Shown: positions 39,491-64,000 of the stretch, one piece after another
Position numbering within the stretch: the first letter of the stretch is position 1
Layout of the letters: every line of letters begins with the position of its first letter
NCBI GenBank assembly: GCA_964482075.1
Contig: CAYZVU010000001.1
Coordinates: 343 to 64,342, forward strand
Reading direction: 5' to 3'
DNA: 64,000 nt
From: Candidatus Woesearchaeota archaeon
Lineage (GTDB): Archaea; Nanobdellota; Nanobdellia; Pacearchaeales; GW2011-AR1
Program-made: the position numbers and the translations under genes
The notes under the pieces: model-generated
Databases searched by the model: none
What the model was told of the DNA's origin: nothing
The model's input: the letters and a program-made list of their open reading frames with translations, nothing else

Positions 39491-39612
39491 TGAAACGGCC
39501 ATAGTAAGTTGGTAATACCTGTTCCCTTTCCGAACACAGAAGTCAAGCATCTTACGCGGTTTGTGTTAGTGCCCGGCAAGGTGTCAAGCATCCGTGCTGT
39601 TTCGTTTTTATT
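39491..39612 (+). rRNA. rrf: 5S ribosomal RNA
   Basis: GC-rich island ACGGCCATAG...CCUGUUCCCUUUCCGAACACAGAAGUCAAGC...GCGG...UAGUGCCCGGCAAGGUG. It carries the conserved loop C/helix III CCGAACnnnGAAGUyAAGC signature, and its ends can pair (GAAACGG/CUGUUUC). Ends are +/-5 nt. Confidence 0.7.
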
Positions 39613-39652
39613 TTTTCGAGCAATTTTTATACTATTAATCATTCTTTATTTT

Positions 39653-39916
39653 ATGAAAATTAAGGAATCTAGAACAGAAGTTGAAAAAGAAGTTAATGAA
39701 TTTTTTGAAAATATTCAAAATAAAACTCCCAAGGAAATTAAGAAAATTAAAAGACGCGCCATGGGAAAGAATATTGCCTTGAAAGATAGAAAAAAATTAT
39801 TCTGTGGAAAATGCTTAAATCCATATTCGGGTAAGGAAAAAGTTCGAATTAAAGATGGGATTAAATCTATAACTTGTAATAATTGTGAAAAAATTTCTAG
39901 ATGGAAAATTAAATAA
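39653..39916 (+). CDS. rnp4: RNase P protein subunit Rpp21/Rpr2
   Basis: Helical N-terminus followed by a CGKCLNPYSG...VRIKDGIKSITCNNCEK zinc ribbon, typical of Rpp21. The start is the ATG at 39653, because the track's 39509 start would run through the 5S rRNA. Confidence 0.65.
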   Translation: MKIKESRTEVEKEVNEFFENIQNKTPKEIKKIKRRAMGKNIALKDRKKLFCGKCLNPYSGKEKVRIKDGIKSITCNNCEKISRWKIK

Positions 39917-48614: not shown

Positions 48615-48656
48615 TTTCAAAAACATTTATAAATTGGAAATCTATTTAATTATATG
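48615..48656. repeat. 42-bp promoter/5'UTR direct repeat, copy 1
   Basis: tttcaaaaacatttataaattggaaatctatttaattatatg is identical at 49161-49202. It contains a TATA-like TTTATAAA element and ends in an ATG start codon. Confidence 0.85.
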
Positions 48657-48881
48657 GTTAAAAAAATACAAGGCAAATCAAAAAAGAAGGTTAATTGGTT
48701 AGCTGCATTATTACTTTCAATATTTTTAGGTGGACTTGGCGTGGATAGATTTATTATGGGACAAGTTGGAATTGGAATTTTAAAATTAATTACTTTCGGA
48801 GGTTGTGGAATTTGGGCACTTATTGATATAATCCTAATTGCCACAAAACACGAATTTGATGGTGTTGAATGGGAATTTTAA
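48654..48881 (+). CDS. TM2 domain-containing membrane protein
   Basis: WLAALLLSIFLGGLGVDRFIMGQ...GGCGIWALIDII is a TM2 domain, two helices with the conserved DRF motif. Confidence 0.6.
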   Translation: MVKKIQGKSKKKVNWLAALLLSIFLGGLGVDRFIMGQVGIGILKLITFGGCGIWALIDIILIATKHEFDGVEWEF

Positions 48882-49195
48882 AGAACTTTTCTTCAAAAAT
48901 ATTCACATTAAGTTATCCAAAATATAGATTTTTTGTTTTTTTAATTGTTTTAATTTTATTATTTATAATTCCTGTTGAAGTTTTAGAAAATTCTCCTAAT
49001 CTTTCAATTTGTTCAAGAATTTTAGGGGATAAATGTTATTCTGTTGGGATTACCCGAGGAGTTTCAAGTTTACTCAAGGGAAATTTTTCACAAGCATTAG
49101 AATATAATTTTCTTAGCTTTGGTGTTTTATTTATTTTAATTTGTTTTATTATGCATGATTTTTCAAAAACATTTATAAATTGGAAATCTATTTAA
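48869..49195 (+). CDS. Hypothetical membrane protein (108 aa)
   Basis: 2-3 TM helices; the 3' end coincides with one copy of the 42-bp repeat. Confidence 0.35.
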   Translation: MGILKNFSSKIFTLSYPKYRFFVFLIVLILLFIIPVEVLENSPNLSICSRILGDKCYSVGITRGVSSLLKGNFSQALEYNFLSFGVLFILICFIMHDFSKTFINWKSI

Positions 49196-49202
49196 TTATA
49201 TG
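49161..49202. repeat. 42-bp promoter/5'UTR direct repeat, copy 2
   Basis: See copy 1. Confidence 0.85.
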
Positions 49203-49475
49203 AGTGAAAGAGTAGAAATATTAATGCGTGTTGTTGTTGCAATTGTTACTGGAGTTATTCTTAGTGTTTGGAAATGGCTTATTCTTGCACTAGGAGTTAT
49301 TAATTGGATTTTCACTTTATTTGCTGGGCGAAGATTAAAAGATCTCGCAGATTTATGTGAAGTTTGGAACACTCAGACGTATATATTTATTAGATATATG
49401 ACTTTAATTACAAATGAAAGACCCTTCCCATTTAGAAGCTTAACAAAAAATATTAGTAAATTTAGTAAGAAATAA
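49200..49475 (+). CDS. Hypothetical membrane protein (91 aa)
   Basis: Two TM helices; preceded by the second copy of the 42-bp promoter-like repeat. Confidence 0.4.
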   Translation: MSERVEILMRVVVAIVTGVILSVWKWLILALGVINWIFTLFAGRRLKDLADLCEVWNTQTYIFIRYMTLITNERPFPFRSLTKNISKFSKK

Positions 49476-49605: not shown

Positions 49606-50385
49606 TTAGGATTTTTCATTGGGTTTTCCTATTTTTTCTAGTTTATTTTGAACGTGATTAAATAATGTTGAGGAAAGTAATGGTTGGTGATTCCCGGGAT
49701 GAATTTGCCCGTCAAATTTGATTTTCCCTAAATAAGTCTGGTTTTTTAGAATCTTTTTCACACCATTTACTGAAAAGCCAAACTTTTTTGAAAGCTGAGT
49801 TAAACTAATTGTTGAATTCAGAAATTCTTGAAAAATTTCCTGAACTTGGTAAGAATGCTCGGCAGGGATAAGCTTTTTCTCTTCTAATCTATACCCAAAT
49901 GGAGCCCTAGTAACTACATCTCCATCTCTTGCCTTTTTATCCATTGCAAACTTTGTTCGTTCCCCAGTCACATTTCTCTCAAATTCTGCGAAAGCAGAAA
50001 TTATATGAAACATTAATTTTCCTGAGGCAGATGTAGTTTCAATTTTATCTTGCAATGAAATAAAATCTATATCCCATTCTTTTAGCTTTTCAATTGTTTC
50101 AATCAAATCTTTTAGTGATCTTGAGAACCTATCCAATTTGTAAATAAAGATTGCTTGGAATTTTCTGAGTTCTGCATCTTCTAAAAGTTGCGTCATTTCA
50201 GGTCTTCCTTTGATATCTTTTGCAGATTTTCCCTCCTCTCTGTAAATTTTTGAAATTTCGTATCCTAAAGCCTTTGCATAATTTTGTAGGGCCTCTTCTT
50301 GGGCTGCGAGAGAAATCCCATGCCTTACTTGCTCTTCTGTTGAAACACGGATATATATTACTGCTTTTGGTTTTTGGTCTATCAT
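49606..50385 (-). CDS. Serine recombinase (resolvase/invertase family)
   Basis: Catalytic N-terminus AVIYIRVSTEEQVRHGISL...Q (Ser nucleophile), a resolvase core (DRFSRS, KLMFHIISAFAEFER), and a C-terminal HTH-like tail. Confidence 0.85.
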   Translation of the reverse strand: MIDQKPKAVIYIRVSTEEQVRHGISLAAQEEALQNYAKALGYEISKIYREEGKSAKDIKGRPEMTQLLEDAELRKFQAIFIYKLDRFSRSLKDLIETIEKLKEWDIDFISLQDKIETTSASGKLMFHIISAFAEFERNVTGERTKFAMDKKARDGDVVTRAPFGYRLEEKKLIPAEHSYQVQEIFQEFLNSTISLTQLSKKFGFSVNGVKKILKNQTYLGKIKFDGQIHPGNHQPLLSSTLFNHVQNKLEKIGKPNEKS

Positions 50386-50854: not shown

Positions 50855-50922
50855 GTAAATTTTTTGGTAATTTTATTGTGGCCTGCCGGCCTTGTGCACT
50901 TAGGTTGCCTTAGTTATTATAT
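50855..50922. repeat. 68-bp direct repeat copy A with GC-rich near-palindrome GGCCTGCCGGCC
   Basis: gtaaattttttggtaattttattgtggcctgccggccttgtgcacttaggttgccttagttatta recurs at 51447-51514 with 2 mismatches. Confidence 0.8.
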
Positions 50923-50967
50923 TTTAGAAGATATATAAAAATATAAAAGAATCTAATTTAACTTTGT

Positions 50968-51450
50968 ATGATTAATCCAGAAATTATATCTCTTGGAAAT
51001 GCTGGAAAAATAATAAGAATAATCCCAAATAAAGAAAGTGTTTTTCAAGAAAAGGCTTGGAGAGTATTTATGGGATTAAACCCCGAATGGGTCTATAGAG
51101 CTATGAAAATTGATCAGGGAAAAGTGAAGGATGAATTTAAAAGAAGGGGTTATGAATGGAGAAATTCTGCTAATTATTCTGAGGATTATTGTGCAGCAGA
51201 GGAAGGGGAAAGTGAAGAGTTTTTTACTTTTAGAAAAAATCATGGGGGATTGGCAAAAGCAATCCTACAAATTTGCATGGACCCTGAAGAAGATTTAGAC
51301 TTTTTATTTAAAATATTAAAATACCCAATATATGCTAGAGTTATCTATCTTGATTATAATGAAACTAATATGGACACCCCAAAACAACAAATGGAATTAA
51401 TCTCACTCTGTAAAGAGTATATTGAAATAATTGATGTCTTGATGGAGTAA
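50968..51450 (+). CDS. Hypothetical protein (160 aa) flanked by 68-bp direct repeats
   Basis: Clean ORF bounded exactly by the two repeat copies; no motif recognised. Confidence 0.4.
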   Translation: MINPEIISLGNAGKIIRIIPNKESVFQEKAWRVFMGLNPEWVYRAMKIDQGKVKDEFKRRGYEWRNSANYSEDYCAAEEGESEEFFTFRKNHGGLAKAILQICMDPEEDLDFLFKILKYPIYARVIYLDYNETNMDTPKQQMELISLCKEYIEIIDVLME

Positions 51451-51514
51451 ATTTTTTGGTAATTTTATTGTGGCCTGCAGGCCTTGTGCACTTAGGTTGC
51501 CTTAGTTATTAGAT
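51447..51514. repeat. 68-bp direct repeat copy B with perfect palindrome GGCCTGCAGGCC
   Basis: See copy A. In this copy the 12-bp core is a perfect palindrome. Confidence 0.8.
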
Positions 51515-51526
51515 GTTTAAGGGGTT

Positions 51527-51810: not shown

Positions 51811-52411
51811 TATGTTTGGTTGGTTTAATAAAAAAAAAGATGTGGAAGAAGTAAGAGAAGAAACAAAAAAAGGTTTTGAAGCAGTTAAAAAAGATATTGT
51901 TTCTGTTAGTGGCTGGATCAAACACCTTGATTCTGAGAAAAAAATACAAAAAAAGGAGTTACAAGACATAAAAGAAGTTTTATCGACGATTCAAATAGAA
52001 ATGGATGGGCTAAAAAATGTACTTTCTTTGATGAATGAGTTAAATCCTAAACAGGTGTTTAAAACACCTAAGAGGGTGTCCAACAAACAAACAGCTGTTT
52101 ATGCTGTTCAAACAGGTGTTCAAACAGGTGTTCAAACACCAAATTTAGGCCAATTTTCAATTACTGAAAGAGCAATAATAAGCATCTTATTAAACACAGA
52201 TTTAAAGCTAAGTTATGATGATTTAGGAGCAATGCTTGGAAAAGAAAGATCTACTATAAGAGGCCAAATAAACTCAATAAAACAGAAAAGTGAGATTATT
52301 TCTGAAAAAATAGAGAAAAATGGTAAAAAGAGGGTGTATATAGAGGAAGATATAAAGGAAAAAATACTCAAAAAGTCGAAAGTGAGAGTTAATAGTGCTA
52401 AAAAAAATTGA
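51811..52411 (+). CDS. Coiled-coil + winged-helix (wHTH) DNA-binding protein with internal VQTG x3 repeat
   Basis: Start MFGWFNKKK at the ATG at 51811. Upstream of this the track ORF runs through the iteron array and was rejected. The protein has an N-terminal coiled coil and a C-terminal wHTH-like domain (ITERAIISILLNTDLKLSYDDLGAMLGKERSTIRGQINSIKQK). It contains a (gttcaaacaggt)x3 repeat at 52106-52140 and an AAACAGCTGTTT palindrome at 52089-52100. Confidence 0.5.
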
Positions 52412-52631: not shown

Positions 52632-53288
<657 letters not shown>

Positions 53289-54159: not shown

Positions 54160-54417
54160 TTAAACAAGATCTTCTTCAGAGATAACTAAAAAGTCGCTTA
54201 TAGAGATTATTGCACTATGTGGGACTAATAATTCATTAGTTGATATTTTCTCTAAATTAAGGTTTTTTGTATAAGGTGTCGCATCTTTTAATAAAACGTT
54301 TATTAATTCCCCTGAATTTGTTTCAAATGTTATGTCTTTAACAAACCCCAGTCTCTTACCTTCCTTTGTTACAACCATCTTTCCTATTAAACTATTAAAA
54401 GAATTTTTATCTTGCAT
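54160..54417 (-). CDS. PRC-barrel domain protein
   Basis: SLIGKMVVTKEGKRLGFVKDITFETNSGELINVLLKD shows the PRC-barrel pattern and parallels the 36912 ORF. Confidence 0.4.
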   Translation of the reverse strand: MQDKNSFNSLIGKMVVTKEGKRLGFVKDITFETNSGELINVLLKDATPYTKNLNLEKISTNELLVPHSAIISISDFLVISEEDLV

Positions 54418-54507
54418 GATAAATCCAGAAGAAAATAATTTATAAACTTTTCTGTGAATTTATATAGAGTTAAAAGACTCTATGATTGATGATTTTTGGA
54501 CTTTTTG

Positions 54508-55052
54508 AGTGTGTGTCCCCATGATTTCCTATAGAAGTATTTATAAATAAAAATTTTGTTTTTTTTTATTTTTATTTTATTTATATTATTATATATATTA
54601 TAGTATATATATTATATATTATATATAAAATTTAATATTTTTAGATTTTTTTATTAATTTTTTTATTAAAAATATTTTATTTTTATTTTTTAAAAATTAG
54701 ATTTTTTTATTAGATTATATTTATAATTAAATTAAATTATAAATTTTATTTTATTATAAAAAATAAATATAATAATATAAATATTAAGTTAATTTATAGA
54801 TTTAAGGTAATTTTTTAATTTAAATAATATTTAAAAATAATTTTTTAATAAATATCTTAATATAATTCTTTTTTTCCATTGGAAATGTTGGTGTTCTTAT
54901 TTTTTAGTGATTATAATCTTTTATATAATAAATTTTGTTTTTTTCGTTGGGTTATAATTTGTATAACATTTTTCCATAGGAAATCATACTGTGAGAGATT
55001 ATATATTTCATATAACCTAAGAGTTTAAATATGAAACAAAATTTAATTTAAA
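54508..55052. promoter_or_regulatory. oriC: Chromosomal replication origin (oriC): AT-rich DUE flanked by inverted ORB-like dyads, immediately upstream of orc1/cdc6
   Basis: About 320 bp (54540-54860) of essentially 100% A+T with ATATAT runs. Two direct-oriented dyads sit on the orc1 side: TTTTCCATTGGAAAT (54873-54887) and TTTTCCATAGGAAATCAT (54971-54988). An inverted half-copy CATGATTTCCTATAG sits on the far side (54512-54526). Confidence 0.75.
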
Positions 55053-56264
55053 ATGGGGTCGGATCTAGATAATATTTTTGAATCTTTTGATAAAAATAGA
55101 ATTTTTCAAGATAAAATTATTTTACAAGTTCATCATCAACCAGATGAAATTATTCATCGAGGGGATCAGATAAATCAAATTGCATCTATTCTTGCGCCTG
55201 TTTTGAGAGGAGAGAAGCCAAGTAATCTTTTTTTATATGGTAAAACTGGAACAGGAAAAACATTATCTATACAAAAAGTTAAAGAGGAACTTTTGAAAAG
55301 AATGAAACCTGCTGCAGATTTTAAATTGAGGGTGGAATATTTAAATTGTAAATTAAAGAAAGTTTCTGATACAGAATATAGGATTTTGGCAGAGCTTATT
55401 CGAAAGATGGGTGGGATGGTTCCTGCAACTGGGCTTCCTACAGAATCTGTTTATAATAAATTTATAGATATTATTGATAATGAGAAACAAATTGTTGTTT
55501 TGATTTTAGATGAGATTGATCAAACTGTGAAGAAAATTTCAGATAGTTTTCTTTATAATCTTACCAGGTTAAATTCCGAGCTTTCTAAAACTCAGATTTG
55601 TTTAGTTGGGATTAGTAATAATTTAACTTTTTTAGATGAGATTGATCCTCGTGTTAGAAGTTCTTTATCTGAAGAGGAGATTATTTTTCCTCCATATAAT
55701 GCTTTGCAGTTGCAGGAAATTTTGAGTAAGAGGGCTGAGGTTGCCTTTAGAAAGGGTGTATTGCAAGAGGGTGTTATTGCAAAGTGCTCTGCCTTTGCGG
55801 CTCGTGAACATGGGGATGCGAGAAGGGCTTTGGATTTATTGAGGATAGCTGGGGAGTTGGCTGAAAGAAATGATTCTAAAAAAGTTTTATTAAAACATAT
55901 TGATGAAGCAAATAGTAAATTAGAGAGAGATAAAATTTTAGATATTATTCGTACTGAGCCCAAACAGTTTCAGTTGGTTCTTTATTCTATAATGAGATTA
56001 TTAGAAGAAAGTAAAGAAGAGGCAATTTTTACAGGAGATGTTTATAATCATTATCAAGATTTATGTAAAAAGAATAATTGTGAGGTTTTGACTCAAAGGA
56101 GAATGAGTGATATTCTTCAAGAATTTGATATGTTGGGGATAATTAATGTTCGTATTATTTCAAAGGGTCGTGGGGGGAGAATGAGGGAAATTAGGTTGGC
56201 GATTGCGAAAAATCTTGTTGTTCAGGCAAAAAAAATAATTGAAGATTCTTTAAATTATAATTGA
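55053..56264 (+). CDS. orc1: Orc1/Cdc6 replication initiator
   Basis: AAA+ Walker A LFLYGKTGTGKT, Walker B VLILDEID, sensor motifs and a C-terminal winged helix. Confidence 0.9.
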   Translation: MGSDLDNIFESFDKNRIFQDKIILQVHHQPDEIIHRGDQINQIASILAPVLRGEKPSNLFLYGKTGTGKTLSIQKVKEELLKRMKPAADFKLRVEYLNCKLKKVSDTEYRILAELIRKMGGMVPATGLPTESVYNKFIDIIDNEKQIVVLILDEIDQTVKKISDSFLYNLTRLNSELSKTQICLVGISNNLTFLDEIDPRVRSSLSEEEIIFPPYNALQLQEILSKRAEVAFRKGVLQEGVIAKCSAFAAREHGDARRALDLLRIAGELAERNDSKKVLLKHIDEANSKLERDKILDIIRTEPKQFQLVLYSIMRLLEESKEEAIFTGDVYNHYQDLCKKNNCEVLTQRRMSDILQEFDMLGIINVRIISKGRGGRMREIRLAIAKNLVVQAKKIIEDSLNYN

Positions 56265-56278
56265 ATCTTTGTTTTAAA

Positions 56279-57829
56279 ATGGAAAATAAAGAGATACTTA
56301 AATTTTGTTTACAGAAGGGACTTTTATTAGATGGAGACGCACTTTCTTTGTTTAATGGGTTAAGTGATATTAATTCTGTGAAACTTCTTCTTGAAAAAAT
56401 TAAAATTAATACAGGGGAAAAAATTATTACTCGTGGTCTTTTTGAAAGAAATAGAGAACAATTAAATGAGTTTGTTTTAACTTTACCAGAGGAGAATCAA
56501 AAAAGTTTTGAAAAATTTAAAATTAAATTAGGGTTAAATATAGAGATTTCTCGTGAGGTGTCGTCTGTTATTGAAAATAAGGTTCTTAATGAGACTTCTG
56601 TTTTGGTTTTTTCTGAAAATGTTGTTAAGGGGAAGAAGGTGGTGGTTTCTGATTTTGTAAATTATTTTAGAAATAGGTTTTATGATATGAAAAGTATTTT
56701 ACAAGAAAAACCTGAATTAAATGGATTAACTTCTATAAATAAATTGTCTCGTGATTCTCAAAGTGTTTCTTTAATAGGAATTATTTCAAATAAAACTATT
56801 ACTAAAAATAAAAATATAATTTTTGAAATAGAAGATTTAACTGGGAAAATTAAAGTTTTGGTTAATTGTAAGAAAGAGGCTCTTTTTAAGGAAGCAGAGG
56901 ATATTAGTTTAGATTCTGTTATTGGTTTTAAGGGGTCTGGGAATAGAGAGATTTTTTTTGTAAATGATATTTTTTTCCCTGATGCAGTACTTTCTGAAAG
57001 GAAAAAATCTCTTAAAGATGAGTCTGTTGTTTTTATTGGAGATCTTCATTATGGGAGTAAGCTTTTTCTTGAGGAAAATTTTTTAAAATTTATAGATTAT
57101 CTTAATGGGAATGTTCCAAATACACCAGAGGCTGAAAAAATAAAATATCTTTTTATTGTAGGAGATCTTATTACGGGGGTTGGAAATTATCCTAATCAGG
57201 AGGCTGATTTAAAAGTAGGCGGGGTTGAAGAGCAATTTTCTTGTATCGCAAATTTATTAGGGAAAATTAGAAGTGATATTAAAATTATTATTTCTCCTGG
57301 GAATCATGATTGTGTTCGATTAATGGAGCCTCAGCCTAAAATTAATGAAAAATATGCCTGGCCATTGTATAAGATGAAAAATGTATTTATTACTGAGAAT
57401 CCTTGTAATATTAATATTGGGGCTGTTCCTGGTTTTTCTGGTTTTAATATTTTAACTTATCATGGTTTTTCTTTTTTTTATTATGTTAATAATGTTCAAT
57501 CTTTAATGAGTGTTAAAGCTGCAAGTTCACCTGAATTAATTATGAAATACCTTTTGAAAAATAGACATCTTGCACCATCTCAGGGTTCGACGCAGTATTT
57601 TCCTTTAGAAAAGGATCCTTTTATTATTAGGGATATTCCAGATATTTTTGTTTCTGGGCATACTCATAAAGGGGCTACTTCTTATTATAATAATATTTTA
57701 ATTATTTCTATTTCTTGTTGGGAGGCGATGACTCCTTATATGGAGAAAGTTGGGAGTAAGCCTGATTTTTGTAAGGTTCCTATGTTTAATTTAAAGACGA
57801 GGGAAATTAAAATTTTGGATTTTGAATAA
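56279..57829 (+). CDS. polB (dp1): DNA polymerase II (PolD) small subunit DP1 (3'-5' exonuclease, calcineurin-like phosphoesterase)
   Basis: Phosphoesterase motifs (FIGDLHYGS, FIVGDLITG, GNHD, SGHTH) and an N-terminal OB-like region; ATG at 56279. Confidence 0.9.
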   Translation: MENKEILKFCLQKGLLLDGDALSLFNGLSDINSVKLLLEKIKINTGEKIITRGLFERNREQLNEFVLTLPEENQKSFEKFKIKLGLNIEISREVSSVIENKVLNETSVLVFSENVVKGKKVVVSDFVNYFRNRFYDMKSILQEKPELNGLTSINKLSRDSQSVSLIGIISNKTITKNKNIIFEIEDLTGKIKVLVNCKKEALFKEAEDISLDSVIGFKGSGNREIFFVNDIFFPDAVLSERKKSLKDESVVFIGDLHYGSKLFLEENFLKFIDYLNGNVPNTPEAEKIKYLFIVGDLITGVGNYPNQEADLKVGGVEEQFSCIANLLGKIRSDIKIIISPGNHDCVRLMEPQPKINEKYAWPLYKMKNVFITENPCNINIGAVPGFSGFNILTYHGFSFFYYVNNVQSLMSVKAASSPELIMKYLLKNRHLAPSQGSTQYFPLEKDPFIIRDIPDIFVSGHTHKGATSYYNNILIISISCWEAMTPYMEKVGSKPDFCKVPMFNLKTREIKILDFE

Positions 57830-57836
57830 TATAAAA

Positions 57837-58400
57837 ATGAATGAAGAAATAATAGAAAAAGTGAGAATGTTTGTTGAAGAAGAATGTAAGAAGCCTATCT
57901 CTAAGTATGGGATGGATGCCTTGGAGAATCATTTTAAATCGGTAGTTTTTCATGTAGAAAAATTATCTGATGAATTTGGAGGAGATAAGGAAATTCTTAT
58001 AATTTCTGCTTGGTTACATGATATTGGTTCGGTTATTTACGATCGAAAAAATCATCATATTACAGGGGCTGATATTGCTGAAAAAAAATTGAATGAATTT
58101 AATTATCCTTTAGAAAAAGTTAAAAAAGTTAAACATTGCATTCTTTGCCATAGGGGTTCCCAAAATATTCCTCCAGAGACGATTGAGGCTAAAATTCTTA
58201 TTGAGGCTGATGCTCTTTCTGCTTTTGATTGTTTGAGTGGTCATTTTAAAGCTGCTTTTATATATGAGGGAAAAAATCAATTGGAGGCAAAAAAAGTTGT
58301 AAAAGAAAAATGGATAAATAAATATAAACAACTTTCTGAAATATCAAAAAAATTAGTTAAACCAAAATATGAGGCAGCAATGTTGCTTTTGGGAGATTAA
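57837..58400 (+). CDS. HD-domain phosphohydrolase
   Basis: HD motif AWLHDIG...H...D(ALSAF). It is located between DP1 and DP2 with 7-nt and 0-nt gaps. Confidence 0.65.
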   Translation: MNEEIIEKVRMFVEEECKKPISKYGMDALENHFKSVVFHVEKLSDEFGGDKEILIISAWLHDIGSVIYDRKNHHITGADIAEKKLNEFNYPLEKVKKVKHCILCHRGSQNIPPETIEAKILIEADALSAFDCLSGHFKAAFIYEGKNQLEAKKVVKEKWINKYKQLSEISKKLVKPKYEAAMLLLGD

Positions 58401-61400
58401 ATGGCATACACAAAAACAACGGAAAAATATTTTAAAGATTTAGAAAAGCAAGTTAGAAAAGTTTATGATATGGCTGAGGAGGCTAAAAAAACAGGATTGG
58501 ATCCTGTGGATAAAGTTGAGATTCCTTTGGCGATGAGTATGGCTGAAAAAGTTGTGGGATTAATTTCTACTGTTTATCCTCAAGTAGAGGGTTCTGGAAT
58601 TGCCAAAAGGATTTTGGAGTTGGAAGATGAATATGGAAAGTTAGACCCTACGGTTGTTTTTAAAATTGCTGAAGAGGTTGCGAAGCAAAAGTATTGTGAA
58701 TTTGTTAGTTTGATTGAGGCTATTACTGCGGGAATTAGGGTTGGAATGGCTTATTATACCCTTGCTGTTGTTGCAAGTCCAATTGAAGGGTTTACTGGAT
58801 TAAAGATTGAGAAGACACGAGAGGGGAAGGAATATTTTAAGGCATATTTCTCGGGGCCTATTCGTAGTGCAGGAACTACTGCTGGGTGTGTTAATTTAAT
58901 GTTGATAGATTATTTGAGAGAACTTTTTGGTTATGCAAAATATGATCCTAGTGATGATGAAGTTGAAAGATATGTTACGGAAATTAATGATTTTCAGGAG
59001 AGAATTACAAATTTACAATATTTCCCATTAGAGGAAGAGATGAGATTTTTGGCAAAGCGTTTGCCAATTCAAGTTGCTGGCGAGCCTAGTGAAAAATTAG
59101 AGGTTTCTAATTATAAAAATTTAGAGAGAGTTGAAACAAATAGATTACGGAGTGGGGTTTGTTTAATTTTAGCAGAAGGGTTGGCGCAAAAAGCTGCGAA
59201 GGGGTTTAGATTATACAATAAGGCAAAAAAAGATGGAATTAAGATGACTGGGTTTGATTGGATTAAAGAGTATGTTGAATTGCATGAAAAATTAACTAAT
59301 GGGGCTGGAAAAAAGATTGGAGATTCTGTGCCGGTTTATATTAAAGATATTGTTGCTGGTCGTCCTGTTTATGGGCATCCTTCGCGTTCAGGTGGTTTTA
59401 GATTTAGATATGGGCTTGCAAGAAATTCTGGGTTTAGTGCTGCTTCGGTTCATCCTGCTACAATGGCAATTACAGATGATTTTATTGCAATTGGTACTCA
59501 GTTAAAAATTGAAAAGCCGACTAAAGGTTGTGTTGTTACTTCTTGTGATTGTATAGATGGGCCTATTATTAAATTATTTAATGGAAGTGTGAAAAAGCCT
59601 CAGACCGCGGAGGAAGCAAGGCGGTTTTACAAAGATACAGAAGAAATAATTTATCTTGGTGATTTTCTTTTTCCGTTTGGCGATGTTGTTAATCGAAATT
59701 CAATGTTGCCAAAGCCAGGCTATGTTGAAGAATGGTGGAATTTAGAATTGGAGAAACTTGGAGGGGAGGTTAAAGATTACTTTAATGTTAGTTTTTTAGA
59801 GGCTGTTGAATTAAGTAAAAAGTTTAATATCCCTTTACATCCGAAATTTATTTTTTATTGGAATGAAATTTCTAAAGAACAATTTTTGGGATTATTAGAA
59901 TGGTTGAAAAATTCTCAGATAAATGAAAAGATTATTTTTCCTTATACTAAAAAAGATCAGGATAAATTTAAGGTTGGGAAAAGAGCGTTGGAATTATTGG
60001 GTATTGGACATGATGTTATTGATGAAAATGTTATTTTAAGTAAAGAAAATAGCTTGGCGCTTTTGGCTAATTTGGGAATTGAAATAAAAGAGGGGGAATT
60101 AAAGGAAAAGATTGAAGATTTTAATAAAAAGTTATTTTTAGAAAATTTAGAAAATAAAAAAACTTTAGAGGTAATTAATAATTTTTCTGAATTTAAAATT
60201 AAAGATAAATCTGGAGACTTTATTGGTTCTCGAATGGGGCGTCCTGAAAAGGCAAAGTTGAGAAAATTAATTGGAAGTCCGAATGTTTTATTTTCTGTTG
60301 GTAAGGAAGGAGGGAGATTAAGAAGTATCCAAGCTGCTTTGGAAGTTGGAAAAATTAGAAGTCAATTCCCGATTTTTTATTGTGAAAAATGTAAGAAAGA
60401 ATCAATTTATGGGAAGTGTGTTTTTTGTGGGGAAAAAACAAAAAAACAATTTTATTTTCATAAATTAAAAGAAAAATCTTTTAGTAAGGTTAGGGATGAT
60501 TCTGAAATGGAAGGGGTTCCTTATTGTACTCAGAATTTGGAGATTAATGATTATTATAATTGTGCTGTTGAAAAAATAAAGATGAAAAAAGAAGAGATTC
60601 CTGCTTTAATTAAGGGAATTCGTGGGATGTCTTCTGAAGAGCGTGTTCCTGAAAATCTTTGTAAGGGTTTACTGAGGGCAAAATATGGACTACAGGTAAA
60701 TAAGGATGGAACGATTCGGATTGATGGAACGGAGTTGCCTTTAACTTCATTTAAACCTAAGGAGATTTTTGTGGGGGTTGAAAAATTAAAAGAGTTGGGT
60801 TATGAAAAAGATATTTATGGGGATGATTTAATTAATGAAAATCAGATTTTAGAACTTTTTCCTCATGATATTCTATTACCATGTTCTCCTAAAACTCCAG
60901 ATGAAAAAGCTGATGAGGTTTTTTTAAATATTGGAAATTTTGTTGATGAGGAGCTAGAGAGATTTTATGGTTTGGATAAATTTTATAATTTTAAGAAAAG
61001 AGAAGATTTAATTGGTGTTCTTGGAGTTTGTATGGCTCCTCATAATTGTGCAGGAGTTGTTTGCAGAATTATTGGATTTGCAAATGTTCTTGGATTATAT
61101 GCTTCTCCTTATATGCATGCTGCAATTCGTCGTGATTGTGATGGGGATGAGATGGCAATTATGTTATTGGGGGATGTTTTGTTAAATTTTTCTAGAAAGT
61201 TTTTGCCAGGGCATAGAGGGGGAACTCAGGATGCGCCATTGGTTTTAAATGCAAAAATTAATGCAGGGGAAGTTGACGATCAAATTTTAGATTTTGAATT
61301 TGTTTCTGGAAGTTATCCTTTAGAATTGTATGAAAAAGCAGAGAAGAGATTGCATTCTTCAGAGGTTAAAGAAATTAAATTATGTAGTGATATTTTAAAG

Positions 61401-61880
61401 GAGGATAGTGATCCTTTTGTTGGGATTGGATTTACTCATGATACTTCTGATTTTAATAAGGGGGTTGTGTGTTCTTCTTATAAAACTTTACCGACGATGC
61501 AAGATAAAGTTAATCATCAGATGGCACTTGTGGAGAAATTGCGTTCTGCGGATACTTCTGATACTGCGCGGTTGATTATTGAAAGACATTTTATGAGAGA
61601 TATTAGGGGTAATTTAAGAAATTTCTCTACGCAGAGTTTTAGGTGTGTTGGGTGTAATGAAATTATTAGGCGTCCTCCGTTGTCTGGAAATTGCCCTATT
61701 TGTAATGGCAAAATAATTTTTACTGTTCATGAGGGTGGGATAAAAAAATATTTAGAACCTGCTTTAACTTTAGCAAAGAAATATAATTTGTCTCCTTATT
61801 TGAAACAAAATTTAGAATTAGTTAAAAGTTATTTAGATAGTATTTTTGGAGAAGAAACAATAAAGGAGGAGAAAGCATAA
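58401..61880 (+). CDS. polC (dp2): DNA polymerase II (PolD) large subunit DP2
   Basis: 1159 aa with DP2 hallmark regions (double-psi beta-barrel catalytic core ...GLARNSGFSAASVHPATM..., C-terminal zinc fingers CVGCNEIIRRPPLSGNCPICNG). No intein-sized insertion is present. Confidence 0.95.
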   Translation: MAYTKTTEKYFKDLEKQVRKVYDMAEEAKKTGLDPVDKVEIPLAMSMAEKVVGLISTVYPQVEGSGIAKRILELEDEYGKLDPTVVFKIAEEVAKQKYCEFVSLIEAITAGIRVGMAYYTLAVVASPIEGFTGLKIEKTREGKEYFKAYFSGPIRSAGTTAGCVNLMLIDYLRELFGYAKYDPSDDEVERYVTEINDFQERITNLQYFPLEEEMRFLAKRLPIQVAGEPSEKLEVSNYKNLERVETNRLRSGVCLILAEGLAQKAAKGFRLYNKAKKDGIKMTGFDWIKEYVELHEKLTNGAGKKIGDSVPVYIKDIVAGRPVYGHPSRSGGFRFRYGLARNSGFSAASVHPATMAITDDFIAIGTQLKIEKPTKGCVVTSCDCIDGPIIKLFNGSVKKPQTAEEARRFYKDTEEIIYLGDFLFPFGDVVNRNSMLPKPGYVEEWWNLELEKLGGEVKDYFNVSFLEAVELSKKFNIPLHPKFIFYWNEISKEQFLGLLEWLKNSQINEKIIFPYTKKDQDKFKVGKRALELLGIGHDVIDENVILSKENSLALLANLGIEIKEGELKEKIEDFNKKLFLENLENKKTLEVINNFSEFKIKDKSGDFIGSRMGRPEKAKLRKLIGSPNVLFSVGKEGGRLRSIQAALEVGKIRSQFPIFYCEKCKKESIYGKCVFCGEKTKKQFYFHKLKEKSFSKVRDDSEMEGVPYCTQNLEINDYYNCAVEKIKMKKEEIPALIKGIRGMSSEERVPENLCKGLLRAKYGLQVNKDGTIRIDGTELPLTSFKPKEIFVGVEKLKELGYEKDIYGDDLINENQILELFPHDILLPCSPKTPDEKADEVFLNIGNFVDEELERFYGLDKFYNFKKREDLIGVLGVCMAPHNCAGVVCRIIGFANVLGLYASPYMHAAIRRDCDGDEMAIMLLGDVLLNFSRKFLPGHRGGTQDAPLVLNAKINAGEVDDQILDFEFVSGSYPLELYEKAEKRLHSSEVKEIKLCSDILKEDSDPFVGIGFTHDTSDFNKGVVCSSYKTLPTMQDKVNHQMALVEKLRSADTSDTARLIIERHFMRDIRGNLRNFSTQSFRCVGCNEIIRRPPLSGNCPICNGKIIFTVHEGGIKKYLEPALTLAKKYNLSPYLKQNLELVKSYLDSIFGEETIKEEKA

Positions 61881-64000
61881 TGGGATTTGTTCATTTACAC
61901 CTGCATACGGAATATAGTTTATTAGATGGAGCAATAAAAATTAGTGAATTATTTAAGAGGGTTAAGGAGCTTGGGCAAGATGCGGTTGCAATTACAGAAC
62001 ATGGAAATTTACATGCAGTAATTAAAAAATATCAACTTGCAAAAAAGGAAGGTGTTAAATTAATTTTTGGATGCGAGCCTTACTTGGTTGATGATATGAC
62101 TGTGAGGGATAAAAATCAAAAAAGACGTCATTTAATTCTTTTGGCAAAAAATTTAGAGGGGTATAAAAATTTAGTAAAACTTATTTCAATCGCTAATAAA
62201 GAGGGTTTTTATTATGCTCCAAGAATTGATAAGAATCTTCTTAAAAAATATAGTAAAGGGTTGATTTGTACTAGTGCATGTTTGGCAAATGATATTGCTC
62301 AAATGTTAGTTAAAGATGAGGAGGAGAAAGCTAAGGAATTGATTAGGGGATATATTGATATTTTTGGGAAAGATGATTTTTATTTAGAGGTGCATAATCA
62401 TGAAATTCCTGAAGAAGAAAAAGTTAGGGAGTTTTATTATAAGGTTGCAGATGAGTTTGGGGTTAAAATTATTGCAGCTTGTGATGCTCATTATTTAAAA
62501 AAAGAAGATACTCGTGCTCATGAGGTAATGCTTTCTATTCAAACTAATGGAAATATGTCTGACCCAAAGAGGTTCAGATTTAGTGGTGGAGGATATCATA
62601 TTATGAGTGAGGATGAAATGAGAAAATTATTTCCAGGGAGGGATGATGTTATTGAGAATACATTGGAGATTGCAAAGAAGTGTAATGTTGAATTAGATAT
62701 AGGCGATTCTATTTTTCCTGATTTTGAAGTTCCTAAGGAATATGATCATGCTAGTTATTTACATAAATTATGTGAGGAATCTTTAAATATAAAATATAAG
62801 GATGCGGAAAATTTTAAAATTGCGAGAGAGAGAATGGAATTTGAGCTTTCTGTAATCAATAAGATGGGTTTCGCAACTTATTTTTTAATTGTTCATGATT
62901 TTATTTGTGATGCAAAAAAGCATTGTCAGGTTGGTCCTGGTCGTGGAAGTGGGGCGGGTTCAATTGTTGCATATCTTTTGGGGATTACTCAATTAGAACC
63001 TTTGTCTTTAGGGCTTTTGTTTGAAAGATTTCTTAATCCAGATAGAATTTCTCTTCCTGATTTTGATATTGATTTTGGAGATAAGGATGTTGTATTGGAT
63101 TATGTTAGGAAAAAATATGGTTTAGATAAAATTGCGATGATTGGAACTTTTGGAACTATGAGTGCGAAGTCTGTTTTGAAAGATGTAATGAGGGTATTTA
63201 GGATTCCTTTTGAGGAGGCGAATGCAATTACAAAGTTTGTAAATGAAAAAACTATTCAAAAATCTTTAGATGCAAAATCAGAAAAAGGGGATTTTATTGA
63301 GGATGCTTTTGAATTAAGAAAATATAAAGAAAAATATCCAGAAATTTTTAAAATTGCGCAAAGACTTGAGGGAAGTGTAAGACATAGAGGGGTTCATGCT
63401 TGTGGAGTTGTTTGGGGGAAAAAGGCAATTGATGAATATCTTCCTGTCCGATTTGCAAAAGGGGAGATTGTTACACAGGTTGAGGGAGGAGATGTTGAGG
63501 CTTATGGTTTGGTGAAGTTTGATTTTTTAGGGCTAGAGACTTTAAATGTTATAAAAAAAGTTCTTGATAGAATTGGCAAGAGCAGTGAATGGTTAGAGAA
63601 AATTCCAATGGATGATGATTCTGTTTATGAAATGTTGCGGCAACAAAAAAGTATTGGTGTCTTTCAAGTTGAGAGTGAAGGAATGAGAAAAACTTTGAAT
63701 TTGGTTCAACCAACTTGTTTTGATGATATTATTGCAATTGTTGCACTTTATCGTCCAGGCCCGATGCAATATTTGGAAGTTTATGCTGATGGGAAGCATG
63801 GGAGGGGGAAAGTAACTTATCCTCATCCAAAAGCAAAGGATATTTTGGCGCCAACTTATGGGATTATGGTTTATCAAGAACAGGTTATGCAGTTATCAAG
63901 GGCTTTGGCGAATTTTAGTGCAGGAGATTCTGATGTTTTAAGAAAAGCGATTGGTAAGAAAAAAATAGATTTAATGAAAAAGATGGAAGGGCAATTTAAG
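61880..64000 (+). CDS. dnaE: Bacterial-type C-family DNA polymerase (DnaE-like, PHP + pol III alpha core), 5' partial - runs off window
   Basis: The ATG overlaps the DP2 stop (gcaTAATGgga). It encodes a PHP domain (MGFVHLHLHTEYSLLDGA...ITEHGNL) and pol III alpha motifs (GPGRGSGAGSIVAYLLGIT, RFLNPDRISLPDFDIDF, GVHACGVV, KFDFLGLETL, ALYRPGPM, YQEQVMQ). The gene was absent from the ORF track because it has no stop in the window. Confidence 0.85.
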   Translation, partial: MGFVHLHLHTEYSLLDGAIKISELFKRVKELGQDAVAITEHGNLHAVIKKYQLAKKEGVKLIFGCEPYLVDDMTVRDKNQKRRHLILLAKNLEGYKNLVKLISIANKEGFYYAPRIDKNLLKKYSKGLICTSACLANDIAQMLVKDEEEKAKELIRGYIDIFGKDDFYLEVHNHEIPEEEKVREFYYKVADEFGVKIIAACDAHYLKKEDTRAHEVMLSIQTNGNMSDPKRFRFSGGGYHIMSEDEMRKLFPGRDDVIENTLEIAKKCNVELDIGDSIFPDFEVPKEYDHASYLHKLCEESLNIKYKDAENFKIARERMEFELSVINKMGFATYFLIVHDFICDAKKHCQVGPGRGSGAGSIVAYLLGITQLEPLSLGLLFERFLNPDRISLPDFDIDFGDKDVVLDYVRKKYGLDKIAMIGTFGTMSAKSVLKDVMRVFRIPFEEANAITKFVNEKTIQKSLDAKSEKGDFIEDAFELRKYKEKYPEIFKIAQRLEGSVRHRGVHACGVVWGKKAIDEYLPVRFAKGEIVTQVEGGDVEAYGLVKFDFLGLETLNVIKKVLDRIGKSSEWLEKIPMDDDSVYEMLRQQKSIGVFQVESEGMRKTLNLVQPTCFDDIIAIVALYRPGPMQYLEVYADGKHGRGKVTYPHPKAKDILAPTYGIMVYQEQVMQLSRALANFSAGDSDVLRKAIGKKKIDLMKKMEGQFK

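What the first reader, a model, noticed from the sequence alone, without database searches (positions are those of the whole stretch)
54508..55052. Canonical archaeal oriC: ~320 bp pure-AT DUE with inverted ORB dyads, immediately upstream of orc1
Positions 54540-54860 are essentially 100% A+T (ATATAT/TTTTTAAT runs) in a genome that is already AT-rich, which is a duplex unwinding element. On the orc1-proximal side there are two direct-oriented copies of TTTTCCAtnGGAAAT (54873-54887 and 54971-54988). The TTCCAnnGGAAA dyad corresponds to the mini-ORB core bound by Orc1/Cdc6. On the distal side an inverted partial copy (CATGATTTCCTATAG, 54512-54526) mirrors the second dyad including its flanking AAATCAT. 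The arrangement of inverted ORBs bracketing a DUE next to orc1 is the textbook archaeal origin.
Basis: partly seen in the sequence, partly recalled or inferred. Interest (0 to 1): 0.6.

Follow-up and report, generated by a model that had tools for sequence, protein, structure and literature searches.

The report
Pacearchaeal chromosome replication origin beside orc1
This is a textbook-style archaeal replication origin (initiator-binding boxes bracketing an extremely AT-rich unwinding region next to the initiator gene) in an uncultured Pacearchaeota-like genome; it is expected biology, but the layout is sharply conserved and includes one extra initiator box hidden inside a neighbouring gene.

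Summary
Window 54538-54871 is about 97% A+T and is the least stable duplex in the 64 kb. It is bracketed by an inverted ORB (54513-54538, minus) and two direct ORBs (54872-54897 and 54970-54995, plus). All lie directly upstream of an Orc1-1-type orc1/cdc6 gene (55053-56264), followed by PolD DP1, an HD protein and DP2.

A 26-nt ORB matrix built only from relatives finds four sites above 22 bits in the window. The next best is 7.4, and the null maximum is 16.5. The same layout recurs in about 25 Pacearchaeota relatives, with ORB-a to ORB-b spacing fixed at 97-99 bp. More distant DPANN loci also have inverted ORBs flanking an AT-rich tract.

New details:
- All boxes are full ORBs with G-rich tails pointing away from the AT tract.
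- A TATA box lies between ORB-a and ORB-b, which puts ORB-b in the orc1 leader.
- A clade-specific 28-bp block follows ORB-a.
- A fourth ORB (53032-53057) lies in the disordered linker of a MarR-like gene and is conserved at the DNA level.

Origin firing is inferred, not shown, and skew is inconclusive. Verdict: a new member of a known kind, of modest interest.

The parts
54513..54538 (-). Distal (left) ORB. On the minus strand it reads ACTTCTATAGGAAATCATGGGGACAC. Core dyad at 54525-54536; GGGG tail at 54517-54520, pointing away from the AT tract.
   Evidence: 22.9 bits with the relatives-only matrix. Conserved at the far edge of the AT tract in 25 relatives as yTTCyAyA.GAAAy.A.GGGGTgAG.
54539..54871 (.). 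Duplex unwinding element: about 97% A+T tract between the inverted ORBs.
   Evidence: Lowest GC and least stable duplex in the whole 64 kb. The equivalent spacer in 21 relatives is 95-484 bp at 76-95% A+T.
54537..54602 (.). Conserved A/T block inside the DUE, abutting the distal ORB. It contains TATA-like TTTATAAAT motifs. Function unknown.
   Evidence: Footprint ATATAaAttTTTaTAAAtAAA...ccTTTtTAAAtat is conserved across 26 aligned loci.
54872..54897 (+). ORB-a: TTTTCCATTGGAAATGTTGGTGTTCT. Core at 54874-54885; GGTG tail at 54890-54893, pointing away from the AT tract.
   Evidence: Exact pattern hit. 23.4 bits. Conserved in 26 loci.
54890..54917 (+). Clade-specific conserved block after ORB-a (GGTGTTCTTATTTTTTAGTGATTATAAT). 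Function unknown.
   Evidence: Near-invariant in the 26-locus alignment. Its 3' 20 nt (pattern TTCTTTNTNAGTRGTYATAA) occurs once per locus, at this position only, in 21 relatives. No consensus RNA structure.
54919..54928 (+). Putative TATA box of the orc1 promoter (TTTTATATAA). The predicted start is near the conserved tCG at about 54944-54951. This is an inference.
   Evidence: TTTATATAA is conserved in 26 loci at a fixed distance from both ORBs. The match to the archaeal TATA consensus is from general knowledge.
54970..54995 (+). ORB-b: TTTTCCATAGGAAATCATACTGTGAG. Core at 54972-54983. It lies in the predicted orc1 5' leader.
   Evidence: 27.2 bits, the top site in the window. Start-to-start spacing to ORB-a is 98 bp here and 97-99 bp in 21 of 21 loci.
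55053..56264 (+). orc1/cdc6 initiator gene, Orc1-1 type.
   Evidence: Pfam, NCBIfam and PDB homologues 2qby_A and 2v1u. Homologues at 75-81% identity in Pacearchaeota MAGs.
53032..53057 (-). Outlying fourth ORB (GTTTCCATAAGAAATGAAGGGGTTCA), in the same orientation as the distal ORB. It is embedded in a coding sequence and codes VSIRNEGVQ.
   Evidence: 24.1 bits. Present in the same frame of the orthologous gene in 19 relatives, and in non-coding DNA in two more distant ones. Codon test in 18 of these plus the window: Ser=TCC in 19/19 and Gly=GGG in 18/19, while folded-domain codons are synonymously saturated.
52990..53033 (-). Perfect (CAGA)11 tetranucleotide run directly after the fourth ORB. 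It codes QTDR repeats.
   Evidence: Runs of several CAGA units, or degenerate ACA-rich versions, occur in all orthologues.
52632..53288 (-). MarR-like winged-helix protein: N-terminal long helix, disordered linker carrying the ORB, and a C-terminal wHTH domain.
   Evidence: Weak Pfam HTH_36 and DnaD_N hits. AF2 model has pLDDT below 50 for residues 49-105. Foldseek top hits are MarR-family proteins. At least 1795 homologues.
54160..54417 (-). Divergent neighbour, a PRC-barrel protein. It has its own conserved promoter (about 54434-54456), with the TATA about 25 nt before the ATG.
   Evidence: Pfam PRC. Conserved CACAGAAAAGTTTATAtATTATTT footprint. Same neighbour in L081 and L083.
56261..61880 (+). 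Replication gene cluster downstream: PolD DP1 (56261-57829), HD-domain protein (57822-58400) and PolD DP2 (58401-61880).
   Evidence: Pfam. The same orc1-DP1-x-DP2 order occurs in L081, L082 and L083.

Best explanation
This is the chromosomal replication origin (oriC) of a Pacearchaeota-like DPANN archaeon, of the Orc1-1/ORB type.

Shown by sequence and comparison:
- Three full-length ORBs lie upstream of orc1. One (54513-54538) is inverted relative to the other two (54872-54897 and 54970-54995).
- The inverted pair nearest each other brackets a 333-bp, ~97% A+T tract that is the easiest place to melt in the 64 kb.
- The G-rich tails of all the boxes point away from that tract.
- A fourth box of the same polarity as the distal one lies 1.5 kb further left, inside a gene.

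Inferred from solved Orc1-ORB complexes and Sulfolobus/Pyrococcus biochemistry:
- One Orc1 monomer binds each box, with the winged helix on the TTCCA..GAAA dyad and the AAA+ ISM on the G-rich tail.
- The two monomers facing each other across the AT tract recruit MCM onto it in the ATP state.
- The tract melts and bidirectional replication starts there.

Further inference:
- The conserved TATA box between ORB-a and ORB-b drives orc1.
- ORB-b then sits about 20-45 nt into the transcript, so Orc1 occupancy would repress its own gene.
- The outlying gene-internal ORB is an additional Orc1 site. It is comparable to the ORB cluster inside dp1 that Cdc6 binds in Pyrococcus. Its role (looping, titration or regulation of the MarR-like gene) is unknown.
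For: - Motifs and coordinates.
- Extreme, unique AT tract.
- The matrix built from relatives picks exactly these sites: 22.9-27.2 bits, next best 7.4, null maximum 16.5.
- About 25 Pacearchaeota relatives share the order ORB(-) | AT tract | ORB(+) - 97-99 bp - ORB(+) | orc1. Most of 80 DPANN loci have a minus-strand box beyond an AT-rich tract and plus-strand box(es) next to orc1.
- The initiator is Orc1-1 type: 2qby_A E=6e-106 and 2v1u E=6e-91.
- The orc1-DP1-DP2 gene order matches the Pyrococcus origin region (PMC1904270).
- Chromosomal context: a 5S rRNA gene in the window and ribosomal-protein genes at the syntenic position in relatives.
- The defining architecture of validated origins is described in PMC12141716, PMC5333045 and PMC1904270.
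- DNA-level constraint on the fourth ORB.
Against: - There is no functional evidence: no marker-frequency, binding or initiation-point data.
- Cumulative GC skew shows no local minimum at 54.5 kb.
- After separating gene orientation, the plus strand is G-rich on both sides, in the window and in two relatives. There is a step but no sign change.
- Some archaea (Thermococcus, Haloferax) grow without using, or without having, their ORB/orc1 origins (PMC5663688 title and abstract). A canonical origin sequence therefore need not be the main start site.
- ORB-a and ORB-b have weaker G-tails (GGTG and CTGTG) than classical ORBs.
- The G-run is 4 nt from the core here, against 9 nt in the P. furiosus ORB oligos.
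Confidence: 0.85

Rival explanations
1. The boxes are only transcriptional operators. Orc1 (or another winged-helix protein) binds them to regulate the divergent orc1 and PRC-barrel promoters. The AT tract is just an AT-rich divergent promoter region, and replication starts elsewhere or without a fixed origin.
For: - ORB-b lies between a conserved TATA box and the orc1 ATG, and ORB-a lies just upstream of that TATA.
- TATA-like motifs abut the distal ORB.
- Skew shows no sign change here.
- Origin-independent growth is known in Thermococcus (PMC5663688).
Against: - Regulation does not explain a conserved inverted ORB placed across a 95-484 bp tract of 76-96% A+T.
- The PRC-barrel gene has its own promoter about 25 nt from its ATG, well away from the distal ORB.
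- The layout equals that of experimentally validated origins.
- Autoregulation and origin function are not exclusive.
Confidence: 0.08
2. The AT tract is an assembly artefact: collapsed or chimeric low-complexity sequence. On this reading the apparent DUE, or the juxtaposition of the two flanks, is not real.
For: - 19 of 80 related loci have their contig ending less than 720 bp upstream of orc1. Assemblers often fail here.
- The window's tract is the most AT-rich of those measured.
Against: - Both flanks, their orientation and the first ~66 bp of the tract are conserved in many independently assembled genomes.
- The tract length of 337 bp lies within the 95-484 bp range seen in relatives.
- The tract is not a simple repeat.
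- The left and right neighbours are the same genes as in L081 and L083.
Confidence: 0.04
3. It is the origin of an integrated plasmid or virus that carries its own orc1, not the chromosomal origin.
For: - A serine recombinase (49606-50385), duplicated 57- and 71-nt repeats, and paralogous HTH genes lie 2-6 kb to the left.
Against: - orc1 is fused into the PolD DP1-DP2 cluster.
- The whole neighbourhood, recombinase included, is syntenic in relatives, next to ribosomal-protein genes.
- Composition is uniform, and the window holds a 5S rRNA gene.
- The Orc1 protein has thousands of close chromosomal homologues.
Confidence: 0.03

Closest known systems
Sulfolobus (Saccharolobus) oriC1, the Orc1-1-dependent origin
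   Same: - It has three ORBs that each bind one Orc1-1 monomer with defined polarity.
- Two of them are inverted and flank an AT-rich DUE.
- The orc1-1 gene is immediately adjacent (PMC12141716).
- The initiator here is a close homologue of Orc1-1 (2qby_A, E=6e-106).
   Different: - The DUE here is much longer and more AT-rich: 333 bp at about 97% A+T, against a roughly 130-bp ORB3-DUE-ORB2 unit.
- The ucm motif (ATTATACAAAC) that is essential in Sulfolobus is absent from this DUE.
- Instead there is a clade-specific 28-bp block after ORB-a and a conserved A/T block next to the distal ORB.
- A fourth ORB lies 1.5 kb away, inside a gene.
Pyrococcus / Thermococcales oriC
   Same: - The gene order oriC-cdc6/orc1-dp1-dp2 is the same.
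- Long ORBs form an inverted repeat around AT-rich DNA.
- TTCC and GAA are the invariant core.
- An additional ORB cluster lies inside a neighbouring protein-coding gene, is conserved across the order, and is bound by Cdc6 in vivo and in vitro (PMC1904270).
   Different: - The gene-internal ORB here is a single box in a MarR-like gene on the other side of the origin, not a cluster in dp1. dp1 has no site above 7.4 bits.
- There is no swarm of 13-bp mini-ORBs.
- The G-run lies 4 nt after the core, against 9 nt in the P. furiosus ORB1 and ORB2 oligos.
Methanothermobacter-type origins built from many 13-bp mini-ORBs
   Same: They share the same TTCCA..GAAA-like core recognised by Cdc6-1 (PMC1904270).
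   Different: Here there are only four long boxes, each with a G-rich tail, and no array of short repeats.

Membership tests
Archaeal Orc1/ORB-type oriC | An orc1/cdc6 initiator gene adjacent to the element | tested here: met
   orc1 at 55053-56264 starts 58 nt after the end of ORB-b.
Archaeal Orc1/ORB-type oriC | Repeated ORB boxes with an invariant TTCC...GAA dyad core | tested here: met
   ORB-a, ORB-b and the far ORB have TTCCAnnnGAAA. The distal box has TTCTAnnGGAAA, a variant shared by about half of its orthologues.
Archaeal Orc1/ORB-type oriC | Full ORB: a G-rich element on one side of the dyad, which gives the box polarity | tested here: met
   GGGG follows the distal and far boxes. 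GGTG follows ORB-a, and (G)TGTGAG follows ORB-b. The spacing differs from the P. furiosus oligos.
Archaeal Orc1/ORB-type oriC | At least two ORBs in inverted orientation flanking an AT-rich unwinding element | tested here: met
   The distal box (minus strand) and ORB-a (plus strand) flank 54539-54871, which is about 97% A+T and the global stability minimum.
Archaeal Orc1/ORB-type oriC | Specific binding of the cognate Orc1 to the boxes | not testable with these tools
   Only homology to Orc1 proteins solved on ORB DNA is available.
Archaeal Orc1/ORB-type oriC | Replication actually initiates here (marker frequency, initiation-point mapping, or a skew switch) | tested here: inconclusive
   There is no V-shaped minimum in cumulative skew. 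Third-position skew of plus-strand genes steps from a mean of 0.37 on the left to 0.68-0.87 on the right (p=7e-4). The orientation-corrected skew is positive on both sides in the window, and on the left side of L081 and L083.
Sulfolobales-type oriC with ucm/UBP | The 11-bp ucm motif inside the DUE | tested here: not met
   ATTATACAAAC with up to 1 mismatch gives 5 hits in the window, none in 54400-55052, at chance frequency.
Thermococcales-type second ORB cluster in dp1 | ORB or mini-ORB cluster inside the dp1 coding sequence | tested here: not met
   No site above 7.4 bits in 56261-57829. The gene-internal ORB is instead in the MarR-like gene at 53032-53057.
Mini-ORB array origin (Methanothermobacter type) | Many tandem or dispersed 13-bp mini-ORBs | tested here: not met
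   Only three core matches lie in the intergenic region, and each extends to a 26-nt conserved box.

The most novel reading that the evidence does not exclude
The Pacearchaeota origin may be a larger nucleoprotein module than the textbook ORB-DUE-ORB unit. On this reading it includes:
- a gene-internal, DNA-level-conserved Orc1 site that abuts a (CAGA)n run in the disordered linker of a MarR-like regulator, 1.5 kb from the DUE;
- a clade-specific 28-bp block after ORB-a that binds a so far unknown origin factor, functionally analogous to ucm/UBP in Sulfolobus.

Together these would couple initiation to expression of the neighbouring regulator, or form an Orc1-mediated loop.
Probability: 0.25. 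Interest if true: 0.55.

Novelty: new member of a known kind. Interest (0 to 1): 0.3.

Why it matters
No origin architecture for Pacearchaeota or other DPANN archaea turned up in the searchable literature. These organisms are uncultured, so a sequence-defined oriC has several uses:
- It gives an anchor for growth-rate estimates from metagenome read depth.
- It helps in orienting and closing MAGs. Assemblies frequently break exactly here.
- It allows in-vitro tests with recombinant Orc1.

The fixed 98-bp ORB spacing, the clade-specific block and the ORB under DNA-level selection inside a coding linker are concrete, testable additions. Conceptually the locus confirms rather than challenges the Orc1-1/ORB paradigm.

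Tried and rejected
1. Structured RNA between ORB-a and ORB-b. RNAalifold on 26 loci gives 0 pairs. Rfam finds only a 5S rRNA elsewhere, and there are no tRNAs.

2. Sulfolobus ucm in the DUE. It is absent.

3. Skew as proof of the origin. Window-wide skew tracks gene strand. Orientation-corrected third-position skew gives a step but no sign change. I tried to extend the contig to the right via the 100%-identical DnaE protein P0241, but it is not on record.

4. An iterated matrix trained on all 80 loci became contaminated by a protein-level look-alike in PolD DP2 (the motif LFPVGxEGGRLRS; window 60291-60316). I reverted to the curated matrix, which scores that site at 2.0 bits. The look-alike served as a control, because it shows synonymous variation and the far ORB does not.

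5. The (CAGA)n run as a phase-variable contingency repeat. Near-identical homologue pairs do not differ in repeat number, and all orthologues are in frame. This is not supported, though frameshifted alleles would not be visible in a protein database.

6. The MarR-like neighbour as a replication factor (WhiP/Cdt1- or DnaD-like). The fold search gives ordinary MarR-family hits only.

7. An integrated element carrying orc1. Rejected on synteny.

8. I could not retrieve Samson et al. 2016 (PMC4724246) to check which Orc1 domain faces the DUE. That point is left as an inference.

Full report
**What is there**

The intergenic region 54418-55052 lies between a minus-strand PRC-barrel gene (54160-54417) and a plus-strand 403-aa gene (55053-56264). 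The 403-aa gene is an Orc1/Cdc6 initiator:
- Pfam Cdc6_C, Cdc6_lid and AAA domains.
- NCBIfam TIGR02928 at 416 bits.
- Its closest solved homologues are S. solfataricus Orc1-1 (2qby_A, E=6e-106) and A. pernix ORC1 (2v1u, E=6e-91). Both were crystallised on origin DNA.

Downstream follow PolD DP1, an HD-domain protein and PolD DP2. The best protein matches (75-81% identity) come from Pacearchaeota / Nanoarchaeota MAGs. The window also carries a 5S rRNA gene, and in relatives the syntenic region adjoins ribosomal-protein genes. This is chromosomal DNA of a ~31% GC DPANN archaeon.

**Checking the observation**

The AT tract:
- Window 54540-54860 contains only 10 G/C in 321 nt.
- The 300-bp window 54550-54849 has 3% GC. 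The next lowest 300-bp window in the 64 kb has 20.7%.
- The least stable 100 bp of the whole window lies here (dG -85.8, against a median of -120.1 and SD 7).
- It is not a clean tandem repeat.

The three boxes exist, with small coordinate errors:
- TTTTCCATTGGAAAT is at 54872-54886.
- TTTTCCATAGGAAATCAT is at 54970-54987.

The pattern TTCCATNGGAAAT with up to 1 mismatch occurs 7 times against 1.57 expected. Three of those hits fall in this 470-bp stretch.

**Comparative evidence**

I fetched 80 loci encoding relatives of this Orc1 from species-representative genomes. In about 25 Pacearchaeota-level relatives (66-78% Orc1 identity) the same layout recurs:
- a minus-strand box at the far edge of an AT-rich tract;
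- then two plus-strand boxes just upstream of orc1.

The start-to-start spacing of the two proximal boxes is 97-99 bp in 21 of 21 loci. The AT-rich spacer varies from 95 to 484 bp at 76-96% A+T. The window (337 bp, 96.4%) is the most AT-rich but well inside the length range.

Aligning the sites shows they are full ORBs, not bare dyads:
- ORB-a class: tTTCCAta.GAAATa.AGGTGT.
- ORB-b class: TTTCCAtagGAAAtaAa.GTGTgaG.
- Distal class: TTCtAtA.GAAAc.A.GGGGTgAG.

A 26-nt matrix built from relatives only (window excluded) scores four window sites at 22.9-27.2 bits. The next best of about 128,000 positions scores 7.4, and the maximum over 20 simulated windows is 16.5. More distant DPANN loci (53-65% identity) also mostly show a minus-strand box beyond an AT-rich tract and plus-strand box(es) next to orc1.

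**Anatomy and polarity**

The distal box has its dyad at 54525-54536 and its GGGG at 54517-54520. ORB-a has its dyad at 54874-54885 and GGTG at 54890-54893. Both DUE-flanking boxes therefore turn their dyad toward the AT tract and their G-tail away from it.

In the solved complexes, and in footprints reported in PMC3089459 and PMC3607249, the winged helix sits on the conserved dyad and the AAA+ ISM on the adjacent DNA. By inference, two Orc1 monomers would face each other across the DUE. This matches Sulfolobus oriC1, where inverted ORB2 and ORB3 flank the DUE and both are needed for firing (PMC12141716).

**Further conserved elements**

The 26-locus alignment of the proximal side shows four features in order after ORB-a:
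- a near-invariant block, GGTGTTTTTCTTTTTTAGTAGTTATAAT (window 54890-54917);
- TTTATATAA (window 54919-54928), which matches the archaeal TATA consensus (general knowledge);
- about 25 nt later, a conserved TTTT..tCG;
- then ORB-b.

I infer that this is the orc1 promoter and that ORB-b lies in the 5' leader, which would allow autorepression.

The 28-bp block's conserved 3' 20 nt occur once per locus, only at this position, in 21 relatives. The block has no consensus RNA structure. Its function is unexplained.

On the distal side, about 66 bp of the DUE next to the ORB are conserved. The PRC-barrel gene has its own promoter about 25 nt from its ATG. The Sulfolobus ucm motif is absent.

**The fourth ORB**

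The matrix's second-best window site, 53032-53057 (minus strand, GTTTCCATAAGAAATGAAGGGGTTCA), lies inside ORF 52632-53288. It is immediately followed by a perfect (CAGA)11 run.

A high-scoring minus-strand ORB lies 1.7-3.2 kb upstream of orc1 in about 21 relatives. In 19 of them it sits in the same reading frame of the orthologous gene, in the motif (I/F)S x G N x G V x T D R Q T. In two more distant genomes it lies in non-coding DNA.

The protein has three parts:
- an N-terminal long helix;
- a disordered linker (AF2 pLDDT below 50 for residues 49-105) that carries the ORB;
- a MarR-like winged-helix C-terminal domain.

Codon analysis of the window plus 18 orthologues argues for DNA-level constraint:
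- The ORB serine is TCC in 19/19, although TCC is only 5% of Ser codons in this window.
- The G-tail glycine is GGG in 18/19.
- Invariant residues in the folded domain show saturated synonymous variation (Ser 1.2-1.6 bits, Leu about 2 bits).
- The amino acids at the ORB's degenerate positions vary freely.

A useful negative control is an ORB look-alike in PolD DP2 (LFPVGxEGGRLRS). It does show synonymous variation and scores only 2.0 bits with the clean matrix.

Gene-internal ORBs near oriC have a precedent. Cdc6 binds a conserved ORB cluster inside dp1 in Pyrococcus (PMC1904270). Here dp1 has none, and the site is on the other side of the origin.

**What is not shown**

Nothing here demonstrates initiation.
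- Cumulative GC skew follows gene orientation and has no minimum at 54.5 kb.
- Plus-strand genes right of the locus have higher third-position skew (0.68-0.87, five genes) than plus-strand genes to the left (mean 0.37, SD 0.18). The Mann-Whitney p=7e-4 was computed on the four complete right-hand genes.
- After correcting for orientation, the plus strand is G-rich on both sides in the window, and on the left side in L081 and L083.

So there is a step but no sign switch, and I call this inconclusive. Some archaea do not depend on their canonical origin (PMC5663688).

**Artefact question**

19 of 80 relatives' contigs end within 720 bp upstream of orc1. The tract is clearly hard to assemble, and its exact length here is unverified. 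However, conserved flanks, a conserved first 66 bp, a within-range length and conserved synteny on both sides make a chimeric join unlikely.

**Verdict**

This is a canonical Orc1-1/ORB origin, newly described for this clade as far as the searchable literature shows. It comes with some clade-specific, testable extras. Interest is modest.

Noticed in passing
window 61883-64000 (+), runs off the window end: A bacterial-type DNA polymerase III alpha (DnaE; PHP, NTPase and finger domains) is encoded directly after archaeal PolD DP2. Homologues at 65-74% identity are common in Pacearchaeota MAGs, but the gene is not at this position in two relatives (L081, L083). It has the same strong third-position skew as its neighbours, so it does not look like contamination.
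   Followed up: partly
window 52990-53033: A perfect (CAGA)11 microsatellite lies inside a coding linker and codes QTDR repeats. Shorter or degenerate versions occur in every orthologue. No repeat-number differences were seen between near-identical homologues.
   Followed up: partly
relatives L008, L011, L017, L021, L022, L024, L029, L031, L037, L048, L061, L067, L071, L073 and others: About a quarter (19 of 80) of related MAG contigs terminate within 720 bp upstream of orc1. Assemblies break in the origin's AT tract. This is useful for MAG finishing, and a caution about tract lengths.
   Followed up: partly
window 50855-50925 and 51447-51517; 48615-48671 and 49161-49217: A 71-nt direct repeat (96% identical) brackets ORF 50968-51450. 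A second, 57-nt repeat (89%) lies 2 kb to the left, near a serine recombinase (49606-50385). A recombinase is also a conserved neighbour in relatives. These may be small duplicated cassettes or promoters.
   Followed up: no
window 51812-52411 (+): A paralogue of the ORB-bearing MarR-like gene: a helical N-terminal region, a VQTGVQTGVQT linker and a C-terminal HTH. It is divergently oriented and has no ORB. A gene of similar size sits at the same relative position in L081 and L083.
   Followed up: no
window 39491-39605 (+): A 5S rRNA gene (Rfam, 60.6 bits). The mechanical ORF 39509-39916 overlapping it is probably spurious.
   Followed up: no
L081 13384-18363, L083 13611-18497: PolD DP2 in two relatives carries an intein with a LAGLIDADG domain (1628-1659 aa). 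The window's DP2 (1159 aa) has none.
   Followed up: no
window 60291-60316 (+) and the equivalent position in many loci: The conserved PolD DP2 peptide LFPVGxEGGRLRS is encoded by DNA that resembles an ORB. It contaminated an iteratively trained motif matrix. This is a trap for automated ORB scans.
   Followed up: yes
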